This document shows, piece by piece, positions 1 to 20,000 of a DNA stretch of 20,000 bases. A program made the translations under genes and the position numbers. Source of the stretch: Sphaeroforma arctica JP610 (taxonomy: Eukaryota); contig NW_014040153.1 in NCBI RefSeq assembly GCF_001186125.1, positions 46,022 through 66,021 of the forward strand. The letters are read 5' to 3'. Each line of letters opens with the position of its first letter. The first letter of the stretch is position 1. The notes under the pieces are model-generated. The model had not been told where the DNA came from, made no database searches, and saw only the letters and a program-made list of their open reading frames with translations.

Positions 1-362
1 GTGGCAAGTTATTGGTTAAGACAATAACTAAGGACATCAAGAGTATTTTTCTTTTCTTCTAAAGCTAGGATTTTATGAGTCTCTCGGATTCGCCCCAATG
101 AAACATACCATAGTTTCTAATAGAGCGACAACGAAAAACTAAATAAAATCCCTTCGGCGAAAACAGTACTGAGAGGATTATATATAGGCAATGTCTCAGC
201 CTCACAATCCCTCAGAGTATTGCTGTTTTCACGAGGCATACCTAACTTTACTAAAAGTCTTATTTCGTTTATTTACTTTGATATTTTCACGATACTTAGA
301 ATTTACCTACGTGTTTATTTACTCTAAGGCGTTAATATCGCCGTAATAGACCGAATCTTACA
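1..362 (+). repeat. 5' LTR of E1 (3' part only)
   Basis: Aligns with ~7467-7792 with scattered substitutions and two indels. Ends ...GAATCTTACA. Confidence 0.92.
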
Positions 363-460: not shown

Positions 461-2288
461 ATGACCAAGAAAGACAATACTCCTTTTAAAAAGCGTAGAG
501 CTGAAAAGAAGAAGATGGAGAGAGAAGCCGCTAGCGCTGCCGCAGAAGCAACCGCTGCCGCTGCTAAGAAGTGATACAAGGGACACGTCTCAAGACGCCC
601 CAACCCATTCGTCTGACAAAATTCAGAAAGAAAAGTTCACAATTGTAAGGGAGTCCCCAATTATAAGGGACAAGGACAAATCTCAGAAGGAACCTATAAT
701 GGAACCAGAGGAAGAGGCAAGCTCAAGTGGCAACCCCGAATCTACGTCTAAGACTACTAAGCTAACGCGCATAAGTAAGTTAGATACTGAAAACACTGAT
801 CTTAAGAATAAGTTAGCTACCCTTAAGAAAGACTTGACTGTTGAACATGTAGATCGATTGTAAACATCAGGAAAACATACACAGGACTTACCGCCACTTT
901 TACCCAATTGGGATGACAAACGTCGGAAACCAGTTAAGACTGGGTATGTTATCCAAACGCATGAATCACCCAAGATTATAATACCAACCACTATCCGAGG
1001 AACAGCGCACCGAAAGGCCTCGACTATGGCCTTTACAAGGGGTAATAAACACCCCCGTAGACGTGTTAACGAAGTTGAATTTAATCGCTTCGATCGCACA
1101 GCACTACATCAACTCGCAGCGGATTTTCGCTCTGACGAGGTGACCGAACTTAACAAATCGGTCGACGATTATACCATTAAAATGGAAATCGCCCACGATG
1201 CGCATCATGCTGAGGATGTATCATATTTTGCTAATATGATAGCGATTAAGCAAACGCGCATCGATCAGCTACTTCAGGCCCAACGTGGACAAGACTACAA
1301 GGATAACCAGAAGTACAAAGGACAGATCAGTCGACTTAAGTAGAACTGGGATGCCAACAGTAAGCAAGTCGAGTTTATAAACAGCCATGACCTCGACACG
1401 CTAACCCGTACGCTTAATGCGTTTACGGTCATGCTGGAGACGAATGATATCGCTCTCCAGCAAAGGATATCTGCTTTAATGCAGACGTTTGACCCTACAG
1501 GTACAAGTTATTTGATCCTGCAGCGACACCAACATGAGCTAGACACTTGTCGTGACTGGCCAGCTGTATGTTGGTTGGCTACATCCTTGTTAAGTAAGGA
1601 CATGCGTAACCCAGGACTGAGTTCAATTTTAACTGAACCAGTTGAGAACACGCCCATTCAGAGATATATTCTGAAGCTAGATGCTGACCTGAAACGTCCA
1701 GATATAACAAAGGACAAGGCACGGTGATGGTACGAGTCCCTGGTTATGCACGTGTTCTGTAAAAACATAGGAAATAACGACCGTGAGAGCCTGTACACCG
1801 AGTTGCGACGTAAACACGCGACTGAGGCTCGAGACAAGGGACATGAAACAAAGTTTCATCTATCCCGACTTACGTGGGAACAGTTTTATGATACTGTATC
1901 CACCCTTTTCCCCGCACACCGAGTAGCATCGAAGGGAAAAGTGGCTGTTAAGAAGCCGCGGGAGCACACCGATCACGGATACGTATCCAGGTAGACCTCT
2001 AACGAGAGACCCCAACATACACGTGCTCGCGACTCCACTCTATCCACGCGACCCAATAAACGGGCACGCGCGGAGGCGAGGGACAAGGAACCTCCATTTA
2101 AAGAGATTAAGAAATGTGCCGATGCACAGTGTGGGTATGACATGTACCAAATAACCCCTAACGGATATTGGAATGGTAGACATGCATCCATCTGTACACA
2201 CTTTCTTATTAAGTGCGACAAGTGTGAGAAGACAAATGGCTATCACACTAAGTCTTGTGACAAAGAGCCCAACATTAAGGTGGAGTGA
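461..2288 (+). pseudogene. gag: gag-like region of E1 with C-terminal Cys/His clusters
   Basis: ATG at 461 (MTKKDNTPFKKRRAEKKK...). ORF pieces at 1026, 1431 and 1746 share one frame, separated by single stops. Ends CADAQC..H..C and CDKC..H..C directly upstream of the protease. Confidence 0.7.
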
Positions 2289-2339
2289 AGGTACTACCAG
2301 GTACAATCGTTACACAGATAATACAACGACTCTTTAGAT

Positions 2340-2650
2340 GAGCATGTAATAATCCCTGTATACTGCAATGGAAATAAAATCCTTGCGTTGATTGATCCTG
2401 GTTCAGAAATTTCATGTATATCCGATCGCTTTGCATTAATGAAAGATATCGAAAGGAGAACACAAACAACTCACCTCATTTTAGTTGATGATAAAACTTC
2501 TAAGTGTGATACCATGGCCACATATGTTAAAATTTCCCTGGCCGATGATAGGATCATCACTACCCAAGCTGTAATAGTTAAGATGTCACAGAAGTACGAC
2601 AATATAGTCGGAATGAGCGATTTACTCACTCTAGGTATAACCGTAGCTGG
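2340..2650 (+). pseudogene. pol: retroviral-type aspartic protease of E1
   Basis: HVIIPVYCNGNKILALIDPGSEISCIS ... YDNIVGMSDL. DPG is a variant of D[ST]G. Same frame as gag. Confidence 0.85.
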
Positions 2651-2899
2651 TCTACCAAATAACATAGATCCATTAAAGGATCAGTCAGACAATAACTGTC
2701 TGAATTCATATAAGCCCCCGTCATACACAGTCAAGGCATTAACACCTGACTTTGCGAACAAAATCATGGATCTGATTCTAGTAAATAAGAAGATAAAGAT
2801 CACAGATTGAGCAAAATTACGTTTTAACGACGGGTATGTCAGCCTTGACTTAACCAAGGTGGACTTTACACAGTTAAAGTGTCCCTCAAGGAACTATGT

Positions 2900-4130
2900 A
2901 TCCTGGAGACACGAGGCTGTGGTAATAGAACAAGTTGAGAAATGGCTAGCAGATGGAGTTTTTGGCACTGCTAGCCGTAGACCAACATAACTCTGACGGA
3001 TCGTTTAAGAAAGTCAGGGTATATTTAAATATGAGTCCAATAAAAATTATATTGCCGACTCATAGCTTTCACTTACCTCGTATTATCGAGCTACTGCGAA
3101 GGGTGGAAGGTGCTACAGTATTTACAACTATAGACCTTACACAAGGAAACCATCAAATGCAGGTATATGAACCACATCGTAAATACTTTAGTTTTACGTG
3201 GAAAGGTGAACAATACAGGTTCAGAGGTACACCTTTCGGGTTACACTCTTTACCAGCATTCTTCCAACAAGTAATGGAAGAAATGTTTGCAGACTTGCCT
3301 AACTTGCAAGTTTACATAGATGACATAGTCATCTTTTCCAAAACTAATGGTGAACACGCCGCATTAGTCAGACGAGTCCTTTAGAGACTCAACGAGCAAA
3401 ACTTCAAGATTAACGAGAAGAAATATCACTTCGCTATGAGCGAAATACAGCTCTTAGGCTACCGATTATCTGGGGAAGGTATTAAAATCGACCCCGGTAA
3501 GGTAGCACACCTGTTATATTGGCGAACACCAACTACATGAAGAGATGTTAACAGCATGTGTGGGTTTGTAAACTTCTTTTCAGATGAAGCACCACACTTA
3601 GCTGACTACCTTAAACCTTTTGGACACTTAAGATGTCATAAAGGCAAACTAGGATACTTGTGGACTAAAGAGTGTGATGACGCATTTAAAGCCCTCAAAC
3701 ACGCAGTCCAGCAAGCACCTGTTGTACAAGGACCAGTCGATGGCGTGCCGTTTGAAATAGCAACGGACGCCTCCGACTTAGCCTTAGGAGAGGAGTATTA
3801 TATCAGGTTATAGATAACAAACCCAGATATATACAATTCTTTGGTCGAGCAATGAATGCTTCACAGTTGAATTACCCAACAGTTAAACAAGAGCTATTAG
3901 CCACAGTGGCAGCTCTAACACACTTCCGATATTACTTATACAGAACAGCATTTACGCTGATGTGTGATCAGAAATCTCTTCAATATATGAAAGAGATGAA
4001 CCCCGACTCACAATTACTAAGTCGCTGGCATGATACAATATCAAAGTTTCATTTTGATATAAAACATCTGCCAGGAATACATAACCATTTACCGGATATG
4101 TTATCACGCTTCGTACCGGACTCTAATAAA
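2900..4130 (+). pseudogene. pol: reverse transcriptase and RNase H of E1
   Basis: VFTTIDLTQGNHQ, TPFGL, VYIDDIVIFS, LLGYRLS. RNase H: IATDASD, YPTVKQELLA, CDQKSL, HLPGIHNHLPDMLSR. Stops at 3382 and 3538 and a frameshift near 3795. Confidence 0.95.
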
Positions 4131-4154
4131 TCCGTACGTGAGTCACTCGCCACT

Positions 4155-4843
4155 GACTAGAAATATAATCCCAGGTGGTTTAAACTGGCTCAAAAGATAT
4201 TTGGGCCACATACCATAGATATGTTTGCTGCACATCATAATGCACAACTATCCAATTACAGGACTTTAAATCATCCTTTGGGAGACACCTTTCAAATAGA
4301 CCTCTCCAAACATAATGTGTGGGCTAATCCACAATGGCAGTTAATTGCCCAGCTATTAAATTATATTCATATACCTAAAGCTACTATCACGTTGTGTTGC
4401 CCATTATGGAGTAAAGATCCATGGCTTAATAAATTGATNNNNNNNNNNNNNNNNNNNNNNNNNNNNNNNNNNNNNNNNNNNNNNNNNNNNNNNNNNNNNN
4501 NNNNNNNNNNNNNNNNNNNNNNNNNNNNNNNNNNNNNNNNNNNNNNNNNNNNNNNNNNNNNNNNNNNNNNNNNNNNNNNNNNNNNNNNNNNNNNNNNNNN
4601 NNNNNNNNNNNNNNNNNNNNNNNNNNNNNNNNNNNNNNNNNNNNNNNNNNNNNNNNNNNNNNNNNNNNNNNNNNNNNNNNNNNNNNNNNNNNNNNNNNNN
4701 NNNNNNNNNNNNNNNNNNNNNNNNNNNNNNNNNNNNNNNNNNNNNNNNNNNNNNNNNNNNNNNNNNNNNNNNNNNNNNNNNNNNNNNNNNNNNNNNNNNN
4801 NNNNNNNNNNNNNNNNNNNNATACTATAATATGTCGTATAGGT
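4155..4843 (+). pseudogene. Dam-like N6-adenine DNA methyltransferase domain in E1 pol (interrupted by the gap)
   Basis: In frame with RNase H: D*KYNPRWFKLAQKIFGPHTIDMFAAHHNAQLSNY...DTFQIDLSKHNVWANPQWQLIAQLL...ATITLCCPLWSKDPW. The C-terminal strand TIICRIG follows the gap. Confidence 0.8.
4439..4820. other. assembly gap (382 N)
   Basis: Run of N. Confidence 1.
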
Positions 4844-4958
4844 CCCATTGGAACAACCAAATGGACCCCTTCTGAGACCTTCCTTAACAAGGTCAAAGAA
4901 TCTGATATTCCACTCTCTACCCAATTGAACGCTAAGCAGTTCAAAAGCAATACAGCAC

Positions 4959-6359
4959 TTGAAGTCTGCGCACAAAAAAATACAATCTACTAATGACACT
5001 ACTGATAAGAAGCGTCAGTCTCTAGCTAGGACTCTGATTAATAACATACAGTCCAAGCCCGAGGTCTTTCAAACTCTATTTCTAAAGGGATTAATGAAAG
5101 ACAATCCTGAAGCGTATACACGTATAATGCGACTACTTAATAAGTCAGGTGTATCTAACGCACATGAGCGCACTTATGACACTCATGCGAAAGCAGGACA
5201 TGAGTCTGGAAACACTACAGACTTGGAGACCACGCAAGTAGATTCTCAACACCCTACCTTTATTCTGGAGGAGCAGAATGATGAAAACATTCTTGCTTGG
5301 CTGACGCAAAACCATAAGCTGAAGCACCAGAACGTAGTAGACGCACTTAAAGATGCGAAGCGAAATGGGATCGCGCACCCTATGCTGACAACTTTAGTTG
5401 ACAGAGTATATCAGTCATGTACAGACTGTGATCTCAATCAGATCAAGCGCTATGGGTTCGCACCGCTTAAGAGTGTGACTGAAGATGTTCAATGGCGCAG
5501 GGTCATCATTGATCTGACTGACCTGCCCACGTCCGAACACGCAGACGACCTTTACGTATGCCACTTCTTTGATGTGGCGTCACGGTTTATTTTGCTCTAT
5601 CCATTAAAGGATAAGAATACGCAGACCGTGGCAGAATTATGTTGCCAAGTCTTTGCTGACCACGGGTGGCCAGGTATTATGTTCACTGATAACGGTAGTG
5701 AGTTCTGCGATGACGTAATGGAAACGCTAGTACTCGTATCAGGCATATGCAATAAGAGAGGTGTGCCATATAAGTTGCAAACGCAAGGCGCGAATGAAAC
5801 GCGCCATAGAAGATTTAAGTACATCTTGCGTACTGCATTGACGGATGATGCAGATGATTGGCCGTACTACCTTAAGTGGGTACAAACACAGATGAACGAA
5901 TGTGCTGATCCGGTTACAGGAACTACAACCACTCACTATTTTCGTGGCACATATAGTGAGTTACAATTACCCTTTAACAAGGACGAACCTGATCACCATG
6001 AGTTACCATGGTTAGAGAAGGTACAACGTACTTATAACGTTGTATATCCTTGCTTGCGAGAAATACGCAATATAGCCTTATTGAAAAGGCAAAAGCGTTG
6101 GAACACTACCAAGAAGATAGCAGAGTATCAGGTCGGTGACAGAGTTAACATCCGTCAACGTAATCCCGATGCTACTGTATTATCATCTAAATGGATAGGT
6201 CCATATATAATCTCTGTAGCAGACACTAAAAGTGGAATGTACGAGGTAAATAACCCCGATGGTTCTAGTGCGCTTCATATAGGCACAAGTCGTATTCCGA
6301 CTACAGAGATTATACTCGCAAGAAGACATGACTCTAATGCCCCTCTTGATCGTTCTTAA
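4959..6359 (+). pseudogene. pol: linker and DDE integrase of E1
   Basis: HKLKH...CTDC zinc finger, VIIDLTD, FTDNGSEF, GANETRH and SKWIGPYII (GPY/F). This part is an open frame but belongs to a disrupted polyprotein. Confidence 0.93.
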
Positions 6360-6678
6360 TTTAAAGACATTATATGGAGAACGGATAAGGGAGGCTATAC
6401 ATACTATCGTACACGCTTTATAGACGGTACAATAGCTGAGTTAACTTCAGATGCGTTCGATAATCAAGACTATTTAAAAGCCTTTAATCGAAGAGATTAT
6501 ACTCGCAAGAAGACATGACTCTAATGCCCCTCTTGATCGTTCGGAATTTAAAGACAGTATATGGAGAACGGATAAGGGAGGCTATACATACTATCGTACA
6601 CGCTTTATAGACGGTACAATAGCTGAGTTGACTTCAGATGCTTTCGATAATCAAGACTGTTTAAAAGCCTTTAATCGA
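6305..6678 (+). repeat. 187-bp tandem duplication covering the chromodomain-like end of E1 pol
   Basis: 6305-6491 and 6492-6678 are nearly identical. Encodes EFKDIIWRTDKGGYTYYRTRFIDGTIAELTSDAFDNQDYLKAFNR. Confidence 0.93.
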
Positions 6679-7036: not shown

Positions 7037-7792
7037 TGTAATAAGCCGGGCCTCCACATTAGACTCTATGTTATAAACGTACTCTTAAGCAGTACGTAAA
7101 TTATAAACGTACTCTTAATAGTACGAGGAACTCAAGTTTCCTAACTGTACTCTTAATAGTACGAGGAACTTAAGTTTCCTAAAATGGTTTTTAATGGTTT
7201 AATTAATTAATACCTTTTCCATTTTATATATCAGATATTTGGACGAGGCCATTAAAAGGCCCCAGCAAAATACCAAACATAAGAGTTGGTCTAGTTCTAT
7301 TAATAGAACCATATTTACTTTCCATCTTTATTTATATCTGAATACTTCGGTAGCGAGATGGCTCAACCGAATATAGGTTTCTAGGGACTATGTTACCTAG
7401 TTGATCCTCCGATCAGCCAACTAGATGTGCCAGTCTGATGAAGGCTAAGTCGGTAATTCTTGATAAGTGGCAAGTCAATAACTAAGGACATCAAGAGTAT
7501 TTTTTCTTCTTCTAAAGAAAACCCCAATGAAACATACCATAGTTTCTAATAGAGCGACAACGAAACACTAAATAAAAACCCTTCGGCGGAAACAGTACTG
7601 AGAGAAATATATATAGGCAATATCTCAGCCTCATAATCCCTCATAGTATTGCTGTTTTCACGAGGCATACCTAACTTTACTAAAAGTCTCGTTTCGTTTA
7701 TTTGCTTTGATATTTTTTACGATACTTTGAACTTACCTACTCGTTTATTTACTCTATGGCGTTAATATCTCCTTAATAGACCGAATCTTACA
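7037..7792 (+). repeat. 3' LTR of E1 (~756 bp)
   Basis: TGTAA...TTACA termini, preceded by the purine-rich tract GGGTGAGGG. The 3' part matches 1-362. Confidence 0.88.
7071..7183 (+). repeat. palindromic tandem units in the U3 region of the E1 LTR
   Basis: GTACTCTTAA(T/G)(C)AGTACG three times and AGGAACT(C/T)AAGTTTCCT twice. Confidence 0.8.
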
Positions 7793-8670
7793 AAGACTCC
7801 AGCCGACGTTGAACGCTTCAAAGCACAACTTCTTTCGGAATTCGACTGCTCTGTCCTCGGCAAACCCACCTGGCTTCCCGGCTGTCGCATTATCACTAAC
7901 GTTGATTCTACTAGCATCGTCCGAACCTCATACATTAATGAGGCCCTCGAGCACTTAGATATCCCCACCGCTCATCCAGTCAACACCCCCCTTCCGACTC
8001 CTTTTACTACCCATACCGCGAACTCGTCGGCACCCTTCACTACCTCTTTATCCTAGCGCGCATCGATATCACCATCGCCGTCAACAATCTCTCACGTTTC
8101 ATTTTCAACCCTATCGAAGACCACTGGCTCGCTGCCTGTCGCGTCCTCCGCTATCTCCGAACCAGACCCACGCTTGGCCTCGAGTACAGCAAAACACCCC
8201 AACCGCTCTCCACTGACGCCTACGCTGATTCCGACTATGCCAGCTGCTTCACTACCCGTCGTTCCACCACCGGTTACGTCATTCGCGTATGTAGCACACA
8301 AGTGATTTGGAAAGTAAACGCCAAAAACTGTCAGCACTAGCACTGCTGAAGCCGAATACTTTACTGCCAGTGAAGCCGCTAAACACATACAGTGGCGCCG
8401 CAACTTCTTAACTGAACTTGGCTTTACCCCCGATGCCCCCACTGATATCCATAGCGATAACCAATCCGCCGTACATGTCATCCCCAACTCGGGCACTCCT
8501 AAGCAGCTGAAGCACGTCGTGTGTTCGCGTTCACCATATTCGTGACCTCCAGGACCAAGGTGTCACCGCCACCAAATACGTTAACTCTGCCGATAACATC
8601 GCAGACACCTTGACTAAGAGCCTTCCTCGACCCACCCACTCTAAACATACATCTAACACACTCACCGCCA
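7793..8670 (+). pseudogene. pol: Copia RT C-terminus and RNase H (frameshifted)
   Basis: FKAQLLSEFDCSVLGKPTWL, DITIAVNNLSRF, RVLRYL, AYADSDYA, RRSTTGYV, STAEAEY, SDNQSA, KHV, NIADTLTK. Confidence 0.93.
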
Positions 8671-8804
8671 TCCCCGACCCTGATCAACCGTCTCTTGTTG
8701 CAACACTAGCACATTCGTTCAATAACAACCATACACACATTACCAACACAACATCGTCCATACCTTCAGGAGAGCTCCGCCCGATCGATGCTCACCGCCA
8801 TCCG

Positions 8805-9256
8805 CCCTCTGCTTTGATCCATCCTCCACCCTCCTGTCTATATCTTCACTACTACCCATCTAGACACCAGCCCTACTTACTCTAGACCCACTATCGTACC
8901 TATATACATACGCACATAACGTGCACAACACCCTACTTACTCTAGACCCACTATCCGTAACATCGCTACCCTATACTACACCCACGTACCTATACACATA
9001 CGCACACAACGTGCACAACACCCGACTGGTGACCACCGCCAAGACTCCTCCCCCTTCTACCCTCTGATTTGATCCATCCTCCTCCCTCCTGGCTATATCT
9101 TCACTACTATCCATCTAGACACCCGTCCTACTTACTCTAGACCCACTATGCGTAACATCGCTACCCTATACTACACCCACGTACCTATACCCAGACGCAC
9201 ACAACGTGCACAACACCCGACTGGTGACTACCACCAATACTCCTCCCCCTTCTACT
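8805..9256 (+). repeat. compound imperfect tandem repeats in the Copia A 3' UTR
   Basis: CTACTTACTCTAGACCCACTAT three times, ACGTGCACAACACCC three times and TTTGATCCATCCTC twice. Confidence 0.88.
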
Positions 9257-9526: not shown

Positions 9527-9709
9527 TGTTGAGACGAATTTATACGACTCAAATCCTAAAACCCCAATAAGCCCAAAGTATATTACGGTTCATATTCTGG
9601 CCGAATAATTGTAATAATATCTTCAAAGAGCACATGATAATTATTATACTATATACCCAATATGTAATATGATAATGAAGTTACTCCGTTAAGCAAATGT
9701 ATATTTCAA
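9527..9709 (+). repeat. 3' LTR of Copia A (~183 bp)
   Basis: Follows the PPT. Aligns over its length with the reverse complement of 12486-12668. The 3' terminus is slightly degenerate. Confidence 0.85.
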
Positions 9710-9874: not shown

Positions 9875-9990
9875 GTGGTGTCAAGAGTGGAATCTTAAAT
9901 TTATCCACATTGTTTTAGAAGTTTTTGATGATGTTCACTTTGTTGTAATCTGTACCTATTCGACATATTATAGTATGTCGCCAGGGCACC
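9875..9990 (-). pseudogene. relic of an E1-related Gypsy: MTase C-terminal strand plus linker
   Basis: PWRHTIICRIGTDYNKVNIIKNF*NNVDKFKIPLLT resembles E1 TIICRIG...FLNKVKESDIPLST. 22 of 23 nt match 4821-4843. Confidence 0.7.
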
Positions 9991-10074
9991 ATTTGAACTG
10001 TTCAGGTACAGATTGGCTCGTAACGAACCATTAGCAAAGTATCTAAAATAAATATTTACAGTCTATGACTTTCT

Positions 10075-11338: not shown

Positions 11339-11753
11339 TTTATTTTGGAGTTGCTCTACATATTCTCAAAGGTGTCACCTTTGTATACGCTGGGTGCTTG
11401 AATGAGTTCAATGCGGGTCTCTTCACATTCCTCGAAGTATGTGTCACGTTCACGACGGATGCGGGCGAGGCTGTTTTGTAATGTGGTGTGTTCGGTGGTT
11501 GTGGTGGTATTGATGTCTTGTGTACGTGTAAGATTACGAGGAAGATTGTCACGTTCGAGGGCGATGTCATTGTAATTAGATTGCGCCTGATTGCGTTCAG
11601 TGACGAGGGTAACTCGTTCGGAGTGAATGTGATCAAGTTCAGTGACAAGCTGGTCGCGTTCAGTGATGAGTGTGCCGCGTTCGTTGTGGATGCGATCGAG
11701 GTCATTAGCTAGAGAGTTGGGTTCGATGGTGTGTTGGTCGTGGTCAGCTCGAG

Positions 11754-12200
11754 CTAAATCGCGGGCAGTATTAGCGGTGTTACATTCGGTGAGGATTGTG
11801 TGGCGCTCGTGACGAAGGCGTACAATATCGGCGTTGAGAGCAGCAATGGAGTCAGAATGTTTGGCAGATGCATTGCGGATGGTGTCGAGATCAGTAGATA
11901 AGTTGGCGCGGTCACGTCGAATACGGGCTTGTTGCGATCAGTGATAGCGGAAATGGCATCGAGTTCGGAGAATGCAGAGTGTGCACCTAAGTATATGGCG
12001 GTGTTGTTGATGTTAGGGTTGTCGTTGGTGTCAAGAATAGCAGATATAATGGTGCGGGTAAGCTGGATGTGATGATTGGCGTGGGAGATATTGGTGTATG
12101 GCTGGAGTGTTGAGAAGAAGTCACGTTCGAAACGTTGGGCGCCCTCAAAAGACGAAAAGGTAGTGATAGGGGTTTGGCCCGTGGGCGGAAGTTGACTCAT
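11754..12200 (-). pseudogene. probable gag N-terminus of Copia B
   Basis: First ATG-initiated ORF downstream of the LTR and leader. Assigned by position only. Confidence 0.5.
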
Positions 12201-12485: not shown

Positions 12486-12668
12486 TGTTGGAACATGTAT
12501 TTGCCTAACGAAGCAACTTTATTATCACTTCACATATTGGCTATATAGTATAACAATTACCATGTGCCTTTTTAAGATATCATTACAACTACTCAGTCAA
12601 AATATAACCCGTAATTTATTTTGGGCTTGTAAAGTTTTGAGGGTGAGTCTTATAAATTCGTCTCAACA
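12486..12668 (-). repeat. 5' LTR of Copia B (183 bp)
   Basis: Terminal inverted repeat TGTTG/CAACA. Inverted homolog of 9527-9709. Confidence 0.87.
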
Positions 12669-13624: not shown

Positions 13625-14764
13625 GGAGCCCCCTTCTTGTCAGAGATGCCCATATCTATGTGTATGGTCATAGCTCTCACCGTTACAGCTCGTAACACCA
13701 TATGGACCAATAACGGTGGCCGTCTCTCTGGTTTCACCATCACTACTTCGTCTGTATCGAAGTGCACCAGACCATGGGGGTGAAGACGATCGAATGTCTT
13801 CATTAGCTTGTATACGGCTTGGTAATCTTGTGCAACGTGGGTGGAGTTGTGTACTGTAACTGAGGTCAAGTCGTTGAGCCCAAATGTCATTGGTAACCAG
13901 TTATTGCTCAGGTACATCGTCGGTTCAATCAGCAAACGGAACATGTCGGCGGCCGAAATATACGCTAAACGGAGCGCTCTTATGTCGTCGTGAGATACGT
14001 AGATTCTGGTGAGTATCGTAAAGAGTAGGCGTTTGTCCCAGGCCTGGAGTATCGCCTCGCAGTAGAAACGTATCGACCGTGTTATCTATTTGTACCGACG
14101 TTCAGTAGCGCCGAGAACTTGGGTTCGATAAAGTGGTGAGGCTTTATAAAGTATCCCAACCACTTTGACAAGTGGGGCCACCAGTTGGTGAATGCTAGTC
14201 CTATATCCGTTTGCAGTCTGTGTAAGAAGCCATGTTCGCCAGATATCGCCTGTAACGTGCGAGCGGTCGTCTCCATGGACATATCAGGTGTAGCACGTAA
14301 AACTGAGTACCCCGATGCAACGACTAACTCATGCAGAACAAATTTATCCTGTTGGATAGATGTTACCGGCATCGAAATGCAGTCGACCTGGAGATGTGAT
14401 CCCAGAGGTACTGGGCGTCGAAGCTGATCACAGGATGAAACCTCTCGTCCGAAGAGTATTGTCCCAAGCGCTGCCAGCATTGTCCTTTGATTTATGTAGC
14501 CAACTCAAATGCCCCGGGCCAGACATGTCCGTTCTATTGCAACTGTTGGCCTGTGTCCTATTCATGGTGTGCTTGTGTGAGCTGTGTTCGGCGCTGGTGT
14601 TCCGCTGGTGTTCCGTTAATAAAGGCCGGTTGTGCAACGTCGCTTGCTATCGCCACCGAAATCTCTCGTACGGCGTCCATATATTGTTGGTATGGCATGC
14701 GACGAGGCTCTGCATATTCCAGACGTTGAGTAAAACTCTCCGTCAATCGGAAGACCGATGATGG

Positions 14765-15150
14765 TCCTACGTGTGCGACTACTGTATGGCCCCATTGAAT
14801 CTTGCCGCAAGGCTATTTTGCATATTTCAAGAAAGTGTGCGGGCTACGAGGCACCAACACTAGCTCTGCTTGTAGTATCGAAACCACGGTGCTCTTGAGG
14901 TCCACGGTAGGCACACCGTCGTAGTATTCCCGTCTGATATAATTTTCCGGAGCGTACGGTGTATCAATTTCCACGGTCGTTTATTCAACCGTCCACTAGG
15001 GCCCATTCATTATCAAACGCTTCTCTGTGAATGTTTTTTGGTCCAGAAGTGGACAAGCTGTGTATTATGTGGCGCTGCGAATACGTCTATATTATTATGG
15101 CCAAATATCCATTGTGCCTGTTCGAAGTGGCTTAGAAATAATTTTTAGCA
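14765..15150 (-). pseudogene. Dam-like adenine methyltransferase domain of E2
   Basis: *KLFLSHFEQAQWIFGHNNIDVFAAPHNTQLVHFW / EAFDNEWALVDG*IN / PWKLIHRTLRKIISDGNTTTVCLPWTSRAPWF ... QWGHTVVAHVG (slashes mark frameshifts). Confidence 0.78.
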
Positions 15151-16659
15151 ACCTGCATAAAGGATTGCCGGTATATCTGTTTCAGCGGTGTTCATGTATC
15201 CGACTGAGCATGTCAGGTAGGGCGTTCTTCTCACCAAGAATATGTGAAATAGTGAAATTGAATGGCGCGATGATGTGATGCCAATGCTGCATCATAGGGT
15301 TGAGCTTGAGCCGGCTGTTCATGTATACTAATGCCTTGTGATTGGTAAACATTATAAACCGCTGGCCGTGAAGGTATTCCCGGGAGTGTGTCCACCCATA
15401 GACTATTGCTAGAAGTTCCTTCATTGGTGTTGCGTAGTACCGGATTGAGCATCTTACTGAAGAACATGAGGTAGTGCTTCTTGCCTTCGACCCATTGGAA
15501 TAATGCACCGTCTACCTCGTAATCTCTGGCGTCCGTTTCCAGGTTGAGTGGCATATCATCCACCGGAAAGTGGAGTGTTACGGTATTGACGATAGCGTCT
15601 TCATTGCATTTCATGCGTCTGATCAACGCTGGACGCCGTGGGGAAAGCGGACGTTTGTTGGCATGCCGTTCGGCATCAAACCTGCATCGTGAATCATCCA
15701 GGCACGGATGGAGCATGAATTCAAAGTGTGGATGGCCTAGATAGCCTAAAGACATGGGCGTGGGTCACAACAGTGTTAGGAAGCACTGGTCGAGCATGAA
15801 AAATCTCATCGTGGCGTGTGTGAAGCACAACGCTAAATTGAACATCAAGAAGTGTTGCTTTGGGATCTCAGATCGGCCGGTCATCGCGTTGGGGCGAGTG
15901 GTGGATGAGAACGGGTCGTACATTAGTGAGGATCGGATGGAATCCATCATGCGCATGCCGCCGCCCACGGATAAGGATCTCTTGGCCTAGTGGTATCACA
16001 CGATTGGTTATTGGAGCCAATACATCCCTGACTACTCTAGGATCATGTCCCCTATCTCGAATCGGAAGAAAGAAGTACCCTTTATGTGGGATCGGACGCA
16101 GCAGGCAGTCTACGATCGGATTCGGGAGGAGGTGGCCAAGGAAGGGGTGTTGGTCGAGCCAGGATTCGAAGACAAACTGGAGATGTATTGCGATGCCTGT
16201 GACTCGGTAGGAGTAAGTGGGAGGTTGTTTGCTCGGCGCAAGGGTAAGCTATGCCGTGTGGGGTTCTGGTCTTCGAAGTTCAGCCCGGCGCAGTTGGGCT
16301 ACCACATTACGGACAAGGAGGCTATAGCCATCGTGTATTGTCTTCATAAGTCCTGGAGGATTGTCAAGCGTTCGCGCCACCCGCTGACGGTGTTCACGGG
16401 CCATGAGCCGTTGGTGCGTATGCTAGCGCAAGACCCCACGTCGTATGAGTCCACGGTTAGATATAGATATATGGCTAGATACGCGCAGGTGCTGCGTGAT
16501 TTCGACACTATCCTAAAGCATGTGCCGGGAGAATTGAATCCAGTGGCGGATGTGCAATCTCGGCTGGTATACCAAATTGACCCAATCATGCGAGCGAGGC
16601 GTCTACCGGCGAAGGATAGAGCGCGTTGGGCTGAGCAAGCGGTGGTGAAGCCGGAGACA

Positions 16660-17055
16660 GAATCTTATGCAGTGAACAGGGCGCTCTTTGACAAGACCGG
16701 GGACAAGTTTGGTCCGTTTGACGCTGAAAGGTTCGCGCATCCAACGAATTATCGATGAAGCCGTACTACCAGCCTACCTTGGCTGGGGGTGTGTTTGCGT
16801 CGAGGACGTGGATGGGTCCACGTTAGTACTTTAACCCCAGGTGGTCAGACTTGGGCAAGGTTGTCACCAGGATTCGCAGGGACAAGGCTACGGTGACGAT
16901 GGTCTGTCCGTATGCACCGGAGGCACGGTGGTTTATGGAAATGGTACCTCTGCTGTCAGCAGATCCTATGGTGATATATCTCAAGTAGGGGATCTTCCTC
17001 CGACACGGGAATGAGCAGATGGATGCGTCAGGTTTTATTTCGCTGGTCTGCCATA
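16660..17055 (+). pseudogene. Dam-like adenine methyltransferase domain of E3
   Basis: In frame with RNase H: ESYAVNRALFDKTGDKFGPFDAERFAHPTNYR / MKPYYQ...GVFASRTWMGPR*YFNPRWSDLGKVVTRIRRDKATVTMVCPYAPEARWF...SLVCHM. Confidence 0.75.
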
Positions 17056-17819
17056 TGAGACATTACCGGGACCACAAGCTGCGTGGAGACTTCTGGGAGG
17101 AGTTGGAAGCTAAGCGGCCAGCTTGGGAGAAGCTGGCTGCTGCGGCAGTACTACGTGCGGAAGACGTAGTGTCCTGTATGACACAGAGTGGTGTCGTAGG
17201 GGCGGTAGCGCATCCAAGTGGGAAATCGGTGCGTAGAGGAATGCCAGCGGAGGAGGCTGGTATTGAAACAACCCCATGTTAGTGCAGTGAATGCACTAAT
17301 GTTTACCACTCAGTCTTTGCGGGCGGCTAAGGGTGTTCTGAATAAGTATCTGAAGCATGCGGAAGTATGGCTGGGAGGGGCATCTGCTAACCCTAGTGAG
17401 GGATCGCTGGGTGCGATGGCAGAAACTTGGCTGGAGTCAGCTGAGGTGAGCACGAGTGAGGGGTCGCTCGGTGCTATATACACTCGGAGTATGAGTGATA
17501 AGTCGCCGGTGCTTACGCGGCGTGCGCGCAAGGCAGCGGTGGTTGCGAACAGCCACCCGGTCTTGGAGGAAATGGACATTGATAAATCACAGGGTGATAC
17601 ATCAGTGGAGGACCATCCGCGAGAGTGTGAGGAAGCACTCACCAAACAGCAGTTAGTCCAGTTAGAGCAGAATCCGGCGGATGGTGTGCCACTGGATGAC
17701 GCGGAAGAGCCACCAGTGGATAAGCTGGGTGACAAGCTGTTGCGACAACGCTTGCGAAGCTTGAAGCGTTCTGTGTTTGGTGTGGAAGTGGGGGGGGTGA
17801 TGTCTTCGAGCGTATCGTT

Positions 17820-18950
17820 AGGTACATGCCAGTGCCAAGAGGCTGGATGATCTGGTGCGCAGGCTATGGGGTTGGGCTGGCATGAAAAAGATGTATGATC
17901 ATGTCCGGAAGAGCTGCAATGCGTGCCAGGCGTTCGCTGAGGAACTAGGCTTGGCGAAAGGCTTGCTGCTGCTGCCAGTGCGCCCATAAGAGGTCATGCG
18001 CGAGATAAGCATGAATTTCATGGACTTTAACACCGTTAACGGACAATCCAAGGTCTTGCTGGTAGTGGACACGCAGACTAGGATGTTGTTTGCGCGATTG
18101 TGTCCTGTATCGACGGATGGGCCAGGTGTGGTCCGCTTCTTAGAAAAGCATGTGTTGGCGTGGTGATCGCCGGCACGGCTGGTTATGGACGCGGACAAGA
18201 GGTTCCAGAATGACAATGTTAATCCATTCTGAGAACGGTGGGCATCGAACTACACTGGGTGACGGTCGACAATCATCAGAGCAATAGCAGACTGGAGATG
18301 TTGAGTAGGACAATGAAGGATTGGTTGCGCCGGGAGATTGAGGCTAAGGATGAATCGCCTCATGCTTGGTTACACTTAGTTTACGATATGGTGCGGGTGT
18401 ACTGGGTGACGGCCGACAATCATCAGAGCAACGGCAGACCGGAGACGTTGATTAGGACAATTAAGTATTGGTTGCGCCGGGAGATTGAGGCTAATGATGA
18501 ATCGCCTCATGCTTGGTTACACTTGGGTTCACGATATGGTGCGGATGTACAATACCACCAGGACCTCGGTGGCAGGGTTTGTGCCATATTTCCACCTGAC
18601 AGGGAGGGACTTTAATGTACAGGTTAGTCCGAAGTTACAGGACAGGGTGTTGTCCTTGTTGGAGTCAGAGCAAGGCACAGGCGATGGTCCGTGACGCGGT
18701 AGCAGCGGTCAGGGACAGGCGGGCTCGACTGGAACAGCAGACAAGTCGGCGGGAGGATGTCCCTCTGTTGGCAGTCTGCTCGAGGGTCTGGTATCGGCTG
18801 CGAGGGAAGTCTCACGACCTGTCTTCGCGGTGGGGTGGACCGGCGCGTGTAGTGGCGGTTCAAGCACCCTTTACGCATACGGTTGAGATGCCTGATGGAT
18901 CTCGCCGTACTTTCTTGAGGGAGGAGTTGAAGCCGCACGTTGAGAAGCTC
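17820..18950 (+). pseudogene. pol: integrase of E3
   Basis: Zinc finger remnant, core with the first catalytic D read as N (MNF), and a GPY/F-like motif. Several stops and frameshifts. Confidence 0.88.
18254..18548 (+). repeat. 147-bp tandem duplication inside the E3 integrase
   Basis: 18254-18400 vs 18401-18548. WVT(V/A)DNHQSN...SPHAWLHL occurs twice. Confidence 0.93.
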
Positions 18951-19436
18951 TCGGAGCAAGAGGAACGGCGCTCTGTGGTGGCTAATATATCATTCACATC
19001 TGACTGAGCAGCAGGATGGCTACCGTCAAGCGTTGGGTCATGCCATGCGTAGAAGACGCGTGTCTGGTCGGGTGAGCTTTGTTCAGCCTGGGGACGCTGG
19101 GAATTCTGGTGTGACGAGGCGAATCTGCCAGTTTATGCACCACTGGTGGACGGCGAAGACGGGAAGAAGGTGCTTGGTGAGGACTATCAGGTCTTGTTGA
19201 TGCGGGTGTTACCGCTGAAGAAGAGTCGTGATGTATTTAAGAGGAAGATCTTGAATGGCTTCGCTTTTGCACAGTCGGCGTTCTACAAGAAGCAGCATCT
19301 ACACTTGGGGTGAACTACAGATAGCAGATAATGTATCTGAGCTGCCGTCGCGTCATTAGTTATAGTGCCTGCGTTAGTTTGTTGACAAATTCTCAGACCG
19401 TTGAGAAGAACTCTATCCTCCACGAGGGGGTGATGA

Positions 19437-20000
19437 TGTAAGGATATCTTGTGTATAGTGTATATAGTGTAGGTAGTGAGGGCTACCCACAGTCTGGCTA
19501 TGAAAGTTGCATAAGGAACTATGTTATCTATCCTAGCGAGGGGTTGTGATTGACATTGGGTGGAATATTAGGGGTGTTAGCCTGAGAGTATAACCCTAGG
19601 GGTATAAGTAGTTTGGTTAGGTGGCTAACCTAGGCCTGGGACTCGATTAAACCAAGCCTGGGACCTGGGGAAGGGTCAGCTTTAGAGTTACCCATAAGCA
19701 GAGGCCGGGAAGAGCCCGTACATAGAGTTGCCTATATTGTGAGGCCTGAGGGTCTCAGATTTGAGAGACTCGGGTTTTGGCTCAAAGATGAGTCATCATC
19801 AAATATTATGTAGTCGCGACCACTGTTGTGGGGCAGGACTACTTTGGGAGTAAATTGATAATATTACTAACAAACATATTTGACTATATAGATAGAGTGT
19901 GTGGCAGGGGAACTGCCACACGCTACACTACTAAACTAATAACCTAGTGAATAAACCTGTAATTTGTGCTAGTCTATCTATTGTTTAGAATCACTAACAA
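19437..20000 (+). repeat. 3' LTR of E3 (probably incomplete)
   Basis: TGTAAGG directly after a purine tract. Non-coding, with a TATA-like run near 19885 and AATAAA near 19950. No second copy in the window. Confidence 0.6.

What the first reader, a model, noticed from the sequence alone, without database searches (positions are those of the whole stretch)
16660..17055. Third, more distant Gypsy family (E3) also carries the MTase, with variant motifs
Seen: FGPFDAERFAHPTN, GVFASRTW, YFNPRW (NPRW at 16833-16844) and ATVTMVCPY...RWF between RH and IN in an element with a very different, G-rich composition and divergent RH. The three catalytic motifs read NPQW, NxPW and NPRW rather than NPPW. Inference: the capture is old and was retained across a radiation. 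The second-proline changes could be post-insertion decay, altered specificity, or conversion to a non-catalytic nucleic-acid-binding module.
Basis: partly seen in the sequence, partly recalled or inferred. Interest (0 to 1): 0.8.

Follow-up and report, generated by a model that had tools for sequence, protein, structure and literature searches.

The report
Gypsy retrotransposon with eroded adenine methyltransferase
This broken copy of a Gypsy-type jumping gene carries an adenine-methyltransferase-like domain, a design already described in a 2026 preprint, but its active-site motif is altered in both copies that could be read, so in this family the domain is likely a weakened or non-catalytic version kept for another job.

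Summary
Observation confirmed. All quoted motifs are at the stated places, between RNase H and integrase of a G-rich Ty3/Gypsy copy. Pfam Dam misses it, but a profile of 145 homologues scores the X-read domain at 93 bits (shuffles at most 7), and its fold matches amino-methyltransferases (PCIF1, RlmJ).

The 'three variant motifs' split up. E1's NPQW is copy decay (an intact relative reads NPPW), and E2's NxPW sits on a frameshift. E3's variant looks family-level: a second copy (Sphaeroforma arctica SARC_09610) reads NPKW, and a sister family reads NAPF. E3 also lacks a D/N found in 135 of 145 homologues, yet keeps the catalytic Asn, first Pro and Trp, and shows purifying selection.

A single old capture is favoured only moderately (89/85), and a separate capture is not rejected (p-AU 0.45). 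DAM-LTR elements, including those of S. arctica, were described in a May 2026 preprint, and this scan has met them before on other DNA. What is left is a divergent, motif-eroded sub-lineage: a modest new variant.

The parts
15654..15990 (+). E3: 5'-truncated, decayed reverse transcriptase remnant (FVGMPFG motif to thumb); gag, protease and most of RT are missing
   Evidence: tblastn of intact DAM-LTR Pols
15991..16575 (+). E3: RT connection and RNase H
   Evidence: Pfam RT_RNaseH_2 E=4.7e-16 and RT_RNaseH E=1.1e-14
16654..16752 (+). E3 methyltransferase-like domain, N-terminal part, in frame with RNase H; holds motif I as E-R-F-A (16726-16737)
   Evidence: HMM positions 6-42; column table
16753..16754 (+). 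Frameshift in this copy; three other contigs appear to be in frame here
   Evidence: table 7, read by eye
16755..17066 (+). E3 methyltransferase-like domain, C-terminal part: GGVF in place of D/N-A-F (16785-16796), motif IV NPRW (16833-16844), conserved P (16908) and WF (16929-16934); stops at 16824-16826 and 16986-16988
   Evidence: 59 bits alone on the homologue HMM; hhalign of the E3 clade to canonical homologues 98.9%, E=3.5e-17; fold hits to N6-adenine MTases
17067..17280 (+). Extension behind the domain, found only in E3-clade proteins (P0003-P0007); function unknown
17834..18612 (+). E3 integrase, decayed (zinc-finger C..C and core; stops, frameshifts, 147-nt tandem duplication 18254-18550)
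   Evidence: Pfam rve E=6.6e-4, Integrase_H2C2 E=0.019; repeat D6
19424..19999 (+). Probable polypurine tract (19424-19436) and 3' LTR (TG...CA, 19437-19999); no 5' LTR in the window to confirm it
   Evidence: sequence; inference from the termini
4152..4436 (+). E1 methyltransferase-like domain (NPQW at 4326), cut by the N gap 4439-4820
   Evidence: Pfam Dam E=1.7e-4, below the gathering score; 109 bits; intact relative P0010 reads NPPW
14750..15156 (-). E2 methyltransferase-like domain with several frameshifts, one of them inside motif IV
   Evidence: 85 bits when read with X

Best explanation
E3 is a broken copy of a fast-evolving Ty3/Gypsy family of Sphaeroforma arctica-type elements whose Pol carries a DIRS/PCIF1-type adenine-methyltransferase-fold domain between RNase H and integrase, and in this family the domain is likely a weakened or non-catalytic module that was kept under selection. 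Shown: the domain and its place; this copy cannot make it (a frameshift and two stops); a basic residue stands in place of the second motif-IV proline in 2 of 2 readable copies; the D/N before the conserved aromatic is lost, also in the sister family; purifying selection among copies. Inferred: the domain would be made as part of Pol and packaged with RT and integrase. It would still hold a target adenine (Asn, first Pro and Trp kept) but bind SAM or turn over poorly, and so serve mainly to bind the RNA or RNA-DNA intermediate or to attract the host 6mA machinery. Odds by step: domain identity 0.97; variant is family-level 0.85; domain was under selection 0.85; catalysis lost or much reduced about 0.55.
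For: Domain; fold. Of 29 non-E3 homologues scanned, 27 hit Pfam Dam at E<=0.001. Family-level motif: P0003 (SARC_09610, a different copy, 63/76 identical over the domain) reads NPKW. Lys and Arg codons can be one transition apart, while the window's AGG needs two changes from any Pro codon and a Lys codon needs at least two (genetic code). Sister family P0007 reads NAPF and shares GGVF. Among 145 homologues the second Pro is kept in 139 and D/N in 135; all 19 rows classed as Gypsy keep the second Pro. Selection: 7 of 9 listed other-copy letters in 16785-16830 are synonymous (expected share 0.23-0.26, p about 0.001-0.002). E3 and P0007 share 48/98 residues in the domain against 22/75 in the extension. 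Precedent for a non-catalytic role: 41 of 145 homologues lack the catalytic Asn; Iyer et al. call DIRS1 domains likely inactive (PMC4738411, passage); the preprint saw no activity in E. coli.
Against: [quoted passage not shown] Glu at motif I also stands in the active enzyme PCIF1 (ECFAS; weak alignment E=0.13). Motif IV was read in only two E3 copies. The whole E3 lineage evolves fast (RT-RH branch 1.96), so the long domain stem need not mean relaxed selection on this domain. No intact E3-family Pol was found. The role of the D/N column in SAM binding is recalled from class I MTase motifs and was not tested. The selection count pools 3-4 contigs over 46 bases.
Confidence: 0.55

Rival explanations
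1. The E3-family domain is still an active N6-adenine methyltransferase with altered substrate or specificity (for example RNA or the RNA-DNA hybrid). The basic residue in motif IV would contact the nucleic-acid backbone.
For: Asn, first Pro, Trp, motif-I acidic residue, F-A, the following Asn, P95 and WF are all kept. The change is to K or R in both copies. Purifying selection. Active relatives tolerate motif IV changes at the first proline (KsgA/Erm).
Against: Two columns conserved in 139 and 135 of 145 homologues are changed together. The sister family has lost the other proline (NAPF), which looks more like relaxed constraint than a new fixed specificity. No activity has been shown even for NPP-type domains.
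Confidence: 0.33
2. All variant motifs are post-insertion decay of an ordinary NPPW DAM-LTR family.
For: True for E1 (P0010 NPPW) and compatible with E2. The E3 copy carries many private breaks.
Against: A second E3 copy reads NPKW, not NPPW, and independent decay would need two or more changes in the same codon twice. The D/N loss is shared with a sister family at 49% identity.
Confidence: 0.08
3. On origin only: E3's domain was captured from a DIRS element separately from the capture in E1/E2.
For: Forcing the E3 clade into a seven-row DIRS group costs 2.7 log units (p-AU 0.454). Three other Gypsy rows (P0042, P0056, P0082) sit with DIRS rows. The preprint counts at least four transfers. The RT-RH tree does not join E3 to E1.
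Against: The best domain tree joins E3 with E1, E2 and the Abeoforma elements (89/85; 83 in the 150-row quick tree). The domain sits in the same place in Pol, in one host.
Confidence: 0.3

Closest known systems
DAM-LTR retrotransposons, ichthyosporean lineage (Pirum gemmata, Abeoforma whisleri, Sphaeroforma arctica); Fernandez-Moreno et al., bioRxiv 10.64898/2026.05.21.726589 (whole main text read; supplements closed)
   Same: Ty3/Gypsy Pol with a DIRS-related Dam-like domain; no chromodomain found; same host species for E3's closest named relatives; Abeoforma proteins among the best homologues.
   Different: The preprint reports Asn-Pro-Pro in almost all domains. E3 reads NP[R/K]W and its sister NAPF. 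E3-clade pieces give no Pfam Dam hit, so a screen at E<1e-5 may have missed them; the supplementary lists could not be seen.
DIRS1-type retrotransposon MT domain (Iyer, Zhang, Aravind 2016, PMC4738411; passages only)
   Same: Same domain family; proposed there to be inactive and to bind transcripts or mimic PCIF1.
   Different: Here it lies in an integrase-encoding LTR element, not a tyrosine-recombinase element.
PCIF1/CAPAM cap-specific m6Am methyltransferase (PDB 6IRY, 6IRX, 6IRW)
   Same: Best structural match of a canonical homologue (Foldseek prob 1.00, E=0.023) and of the E3 piece by VIA (Z 4.9, rmsd 4.3, 103 aligned); Glu at motif I.
   Different: PCIF1 has NPPF, a helical domain and a WW domain. 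The matches are weak and show the fold, not the function.

Membership tests
DAM-LTR (Ty3/Gypsy with Dam-like domain) | Ty3/Gypsy RT-RH-IN order with DDE integrase | tested here: met
   Pfam RH and rve/H2C2; RT-RH groups on the Gypsy side against 4 DIRS rows, 100/100
DAM-LTR (Ty3/Gypsy with Dam-like domain) | Domain homologous to the eukaryotic (DIRS-type) DAM family inside Pol | tested here: met
   93 bits on the HMM of 145 homologues; hhalign 98.9%. The homologues were first retrieved with a profile that held E3 pieces, but 27 of 29 scanned hit Pfam Dam on their own.
DAM-LTR (Ty3/Gypsy with Dam-like domain) | Direct Pfam PF05869 Dam hit (the preprint's screen used hmmsearch at E<1e-5) | tested here: inconclusive
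   No hit for the E3 pieces, P0003 or P0007, but only pieces of the domain could be scanned
DAM-LTR (Ty3/Gypsy with Dam-like domain) | Paired LTRs | tested here: inconclusive
   Probable PPT and TG...CA 3' LTR at 19424-19999; the 5' part of the element is missing
Ichthyosporean DAM-LTR clade of the preprint | Domain falls in one clade with S. arctica and Abeoforma DAM-LTR domains | tested here: inconclusive
   89/85 support; alternative not rejected, p-AU 0.454
Ichthyosporean DAM-LTR clade of the preprint | No chromodomain | tested here: met
   No Pfam hit in the 3' pieces 18600-19307; the copy is decayed, so this is weak
Canonical N6-adenine amino-methyltransferase | Motif IV (D/N/S)-P-P-(Y/F/W) | tested here: not met
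   NPRW in the window, NPKW in P0003; consensus from PMC7544214
Canonical N6-adenine amino-methyltransferase | Rossmann-type MTase fold | tested here: met
   Model pLDDT 78, pTM 0.71; 12 of the first 12 Foldseek rows are RlmJ, PCIF1 or CcrM, all at E>0.001; VIA best Z 4.9. Weak; only the C-terminal piece was folded.
Canonical N6-adenine amino-methyltransferase | SAM binding and methyl transfer | not testable with these tools
   needs biochemistry
EpiLTR (DAM + DNMT + chromodomain) | C5-cytosine methyltransferase and chromodomain in the element | tested here: inconclusive
   No such Pfam hit in the E3 pieces scanned; the 5' half of E3 is missing

The most novel reading that the evidence does not exclude
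E3 and its sister family (SARC_12758) form an old DAM-LTR sub-lineage in which the adenine methyltransferase became a pseudo-enzyme yet stayed under purifying selection and gained a lineage-specific extension. This would show that the benefit of the domain to LTR elements does not need catalysis. It would also give a natural catalytic-dead control inside the existing S. arctica 6mA and RNA data.
Probability: 0.35. Interest if true: 0.55.

Novelty: new variant of a known kind. Interest (0 to 1): 0.3.

Why it matters
What the Dam-like domain of DIRS and DAM-LTR elements does is open. One paper calls the domains likely inactive. The preprint finds 6mA enrichment on DAM-LTR insertions but no activity in E. 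coli. A family in the same genome with an eroded but selected domain lets this be tested on data that already exist (GSE331346 named). If E3-family insertions are as 6mA-rich as NPPW families, the element's own catalysis is probably not the cause. It also suggests that Pfam-based screens undercount DAM-LTRs and may have put such families in the 'non-DAM' control group (inference).

Tried and rejected
No genome is held for this window, so copies could not be aligned genome-wide.

Pfam, PHROGs and PDB sequence searches gave nothing for the E3 pieces. E1's domain found no PDB sequence. Word-index protein searches with E1's domain and E3's RH for longer proteins found 0 and 1 hits, the one being a Gypsy without the domain. 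Pattern and locus scans of metagenome and viral contigs found no E3 relative; an alignment of 13 intact Pols was too divergent to search with. Atlas searches gave unnamed eukaryotic clusters and weak Dam leads only.

One search was meant to read the motif-IV codons in other copies. No difference is listed at 16833-16844, but every listed row lies 33 or more bases from the end of an aligned piece and the motif lies 17-28 bases from it. I therefore do not count the blank as agreement. One search showed only 40 of 448 rows. No RNA holder was listed.

In the RT-RH tree I gave E2's first piece in the wrong frame, so E2's place there is ignored. That tree holds only one Gypsy without the domain, so it cannot test monophyly of carriers.

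I recall that second-proline mutants of E. coli Dam are inactive (Guyot et al. 1993). The paper is not held, so this is not used as evidence. Searches found no paper on an NP[K/R]W lineage; subscription papers and the preprint's supplements were not searchable.

Rejected: the idea that all three elements carry family-level second-proline changes.

Full report
What is there. The window holds three decayed Ty3/Gypsy copies: E1 (+, about 860-6360), E2 (-, about 15640-13470) and E3 (+, about 15650-20000). E3 lacks its 5' half. It runs RT remnant, RNase H, the domain in question, a spacer, integrase and a probable PPT and 3' LTR. The domain is broken in this copy by a frameshift near 16753 and stops at 16824 and 16986. 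In other contigs from public runs the first stop is a sense codon (2 of 2 contigs covering it) and the frameshift appears absent (3 contigs). The closest named relatives are Sphaeroforma arctica JP610 proteins, so the host is most likely this ichthyosporean or a close relative.

Is it a methyltransferase domain? Pfam Dam hits E1's domain weakly (E=1.7e-4) and the E3 pieces not at all. A profile search of 1.84 billion representatives with the window's pieces plus P0003 gave 1735 hits at E<=0.001, of which the best 150 were listed. I set aside the 5 E3-clade rows and built an HMM from the other 145. E3 read with X at the breaks scores 93 bits, E1 109 and E2 85; the best of 2000 shuffles of E3 scores 7.0. 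The retrieval profile contained E3 pieces, but 27 of the 29 non-E3 homologues I scanned hit Pfam Dam independently. Profile-profile comparison of the E3 clade with 66 canonical homologues gives 98.9%. A model of the C-terminal piece (pLDDT 78) returns RlmJ, PCIF1 and CcrM as the first 12 Foldseek rows, none at E<=0.001, and PCIF1 first by VIA at Z 4.9. A canonical homologue's best match is also PCIF1. The domain call stands.

Are the variant motifs real? For E1, no: an intact Pol of its family (P0010, about 67% identical over RT-RH and the domain) reads NPPW. For E2 the motif is cut by a frameshift, the second proline is present, and the nearest relative P0081 reads CPPW. For E3, yes as far as two copies can tell: SARC_09610 (P0003), a different copy with 63/76 identity over the domain and a 19-residue gap behind it, reads NPKW. 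The sister family SARC_12758 (P0007, 48/98 identical) reads NAPF and shares E3's GGVF where homologues have D/N-A-F. Among the 145 homologues the second proline is kept in 139, D/N in 135 and the motif-I Asp in 142 (Glu in 2). All 19 rows that my crude profiles class as Gypsy keep the second proline (75 DIRS-like, 51 unclassed). One unclassed row on the DIRS side also reads NPRW (P0130). E3 has Glu at motif I, as do the other contigs by eye and zebrafish PCIF1.

Was the domain under selection? In the 46 bases where could list differences, 7 of 9 other-copy letters are synonymous (expected share 0.23-0.26; p 0.001-0.002). The other two are shared by all contigs covering them, so they look like private damage in the window copy. 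Between E3 and its sister family the domain is better kept (48/98) than the extension behind it (22/75). These are small samples, but they agree.

How it most likely works. As part of Pol the domain would be packaged with RT and integrase and meet the RNA, the RNA-DNA hybrid and the cDNA (inference from Gypsy biology; the preprint proposes the same setting). In amino-methyltransferases the Asn/Asp side chain and the first proline's carbonyl activate N6 and the aromatic residue stacks on the base (PMC3814359 passages; PMC7544214 passages). E3 keeps these three, so it is not plainly dead. But it has lost two strongly conserved neighbours, and its sister has lost the other proline. The family at large often drops the catalytic Asn (41 of 145). 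I put about 0.55 on a weakened or non-catalytic binding module, 0.33 on an active enzyme with altered substrate and under 0.1 on pure decay. Nothing here measures activity.

Origin. In a 46-row careful tree of the domain (all 19 Gypsy-classed rows, 16 of 75 DIRS rows, 6 unclassed rows, P0003, P0007 and the three window copies), E3, P0003 and P0007 form a clade (100/99) on a long stem. It joins E1, E2 and the Abeoforma elements at 89/85. Forcing it into a DIRS group is not rejected (p-AU 0.454). Three other Gypsy rows sit with DIRS rows, in line with repeated captures. In the RT-RH tree E3 is on the Gypsy side with the longest end branch (1.96) and no supported neighbour. A shared old capture is plausible, not shown.

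Comparison with what is known. Fernandez-Moreno et al. (bioRxiv 10.64898/2026.05.21.726589; whole main text read; supplements closed) describe DAM-LTR elements. They name an ichthyosporean lineage including S. arctica, at least four transfers from DIRS, an Asn-Pro-Pro triplet in almost all domains, 6mA enrichment on insertions and no activity in E. coli. Iyer et al. (PMC4738411, passages) already proposed that DIRS1 domains derive from PCIF1 and are inactive binding modules. PMC8287941, PMC13290413 and PMC3527978 were seen as passages only and add background on NPPF. Earlier notes of this scan report the same architecture in other genomes, two with a degenerate motif (not checked here). My searches found no description of an NP[K/R]W lineage, but the preprint's supplementary lists may hold it.

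Verdict. A real feature of a known kind, with a modest new twist: a divergent, Pfam-invisible sub-lineage whose motif IV is eroded at family level while the domain stays conserved. Interest 0.3.

Noticed in passing
window 9884-10043 (-): A fourth, small remnant of the methyltransferase C-terminus of an E1-like element (71% DNA identity to 4821-4916; tblastn to P0010 E=5e-4).
   Followed up: partly
window 15640-15660: E2 (-) and E3 (+) meet head to head, both cut at their 5' side. Public contigs match each side letter for letter (14800-15659 and 15647-16197), but no listed piece bridges the joint.
   Followed up: partly
window 9527-9709 and 12488-12668: Inverted repeat of about 180 nt, 80% alike, around a region with a coiled-coil-like ORF (11356-11937, -) and short tandem repeats; possibly a terminal-inverted-repeat element.
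   Followed up: no
window 7900-8900 (+): Fragment that reads like the end of a Ty1/Copia RT and RNase H, C-rich on its coding strand (family label from recall, not scanned).
   Followed up: no
window 18-362 and 7472-7792: Direct repeat of about 340 nt, 86% alike, flanking E1: probably its two LTRs.
   Followed up: no
proteins P0027 and P0091: Gypsy-type Pols of over 2100 aa with an APE-like endonuclease (PF03372) and the Dam-like domain placed before RT, an order unlike E1-E3.
   Followed up: no
window 17067-17280 and proteins P0003-P0007: A conserved extension of about 70 aa behind the domain, seen only in the E3 clade and partly duplicated in P0005; no Pfam match.
   Followed up: partly
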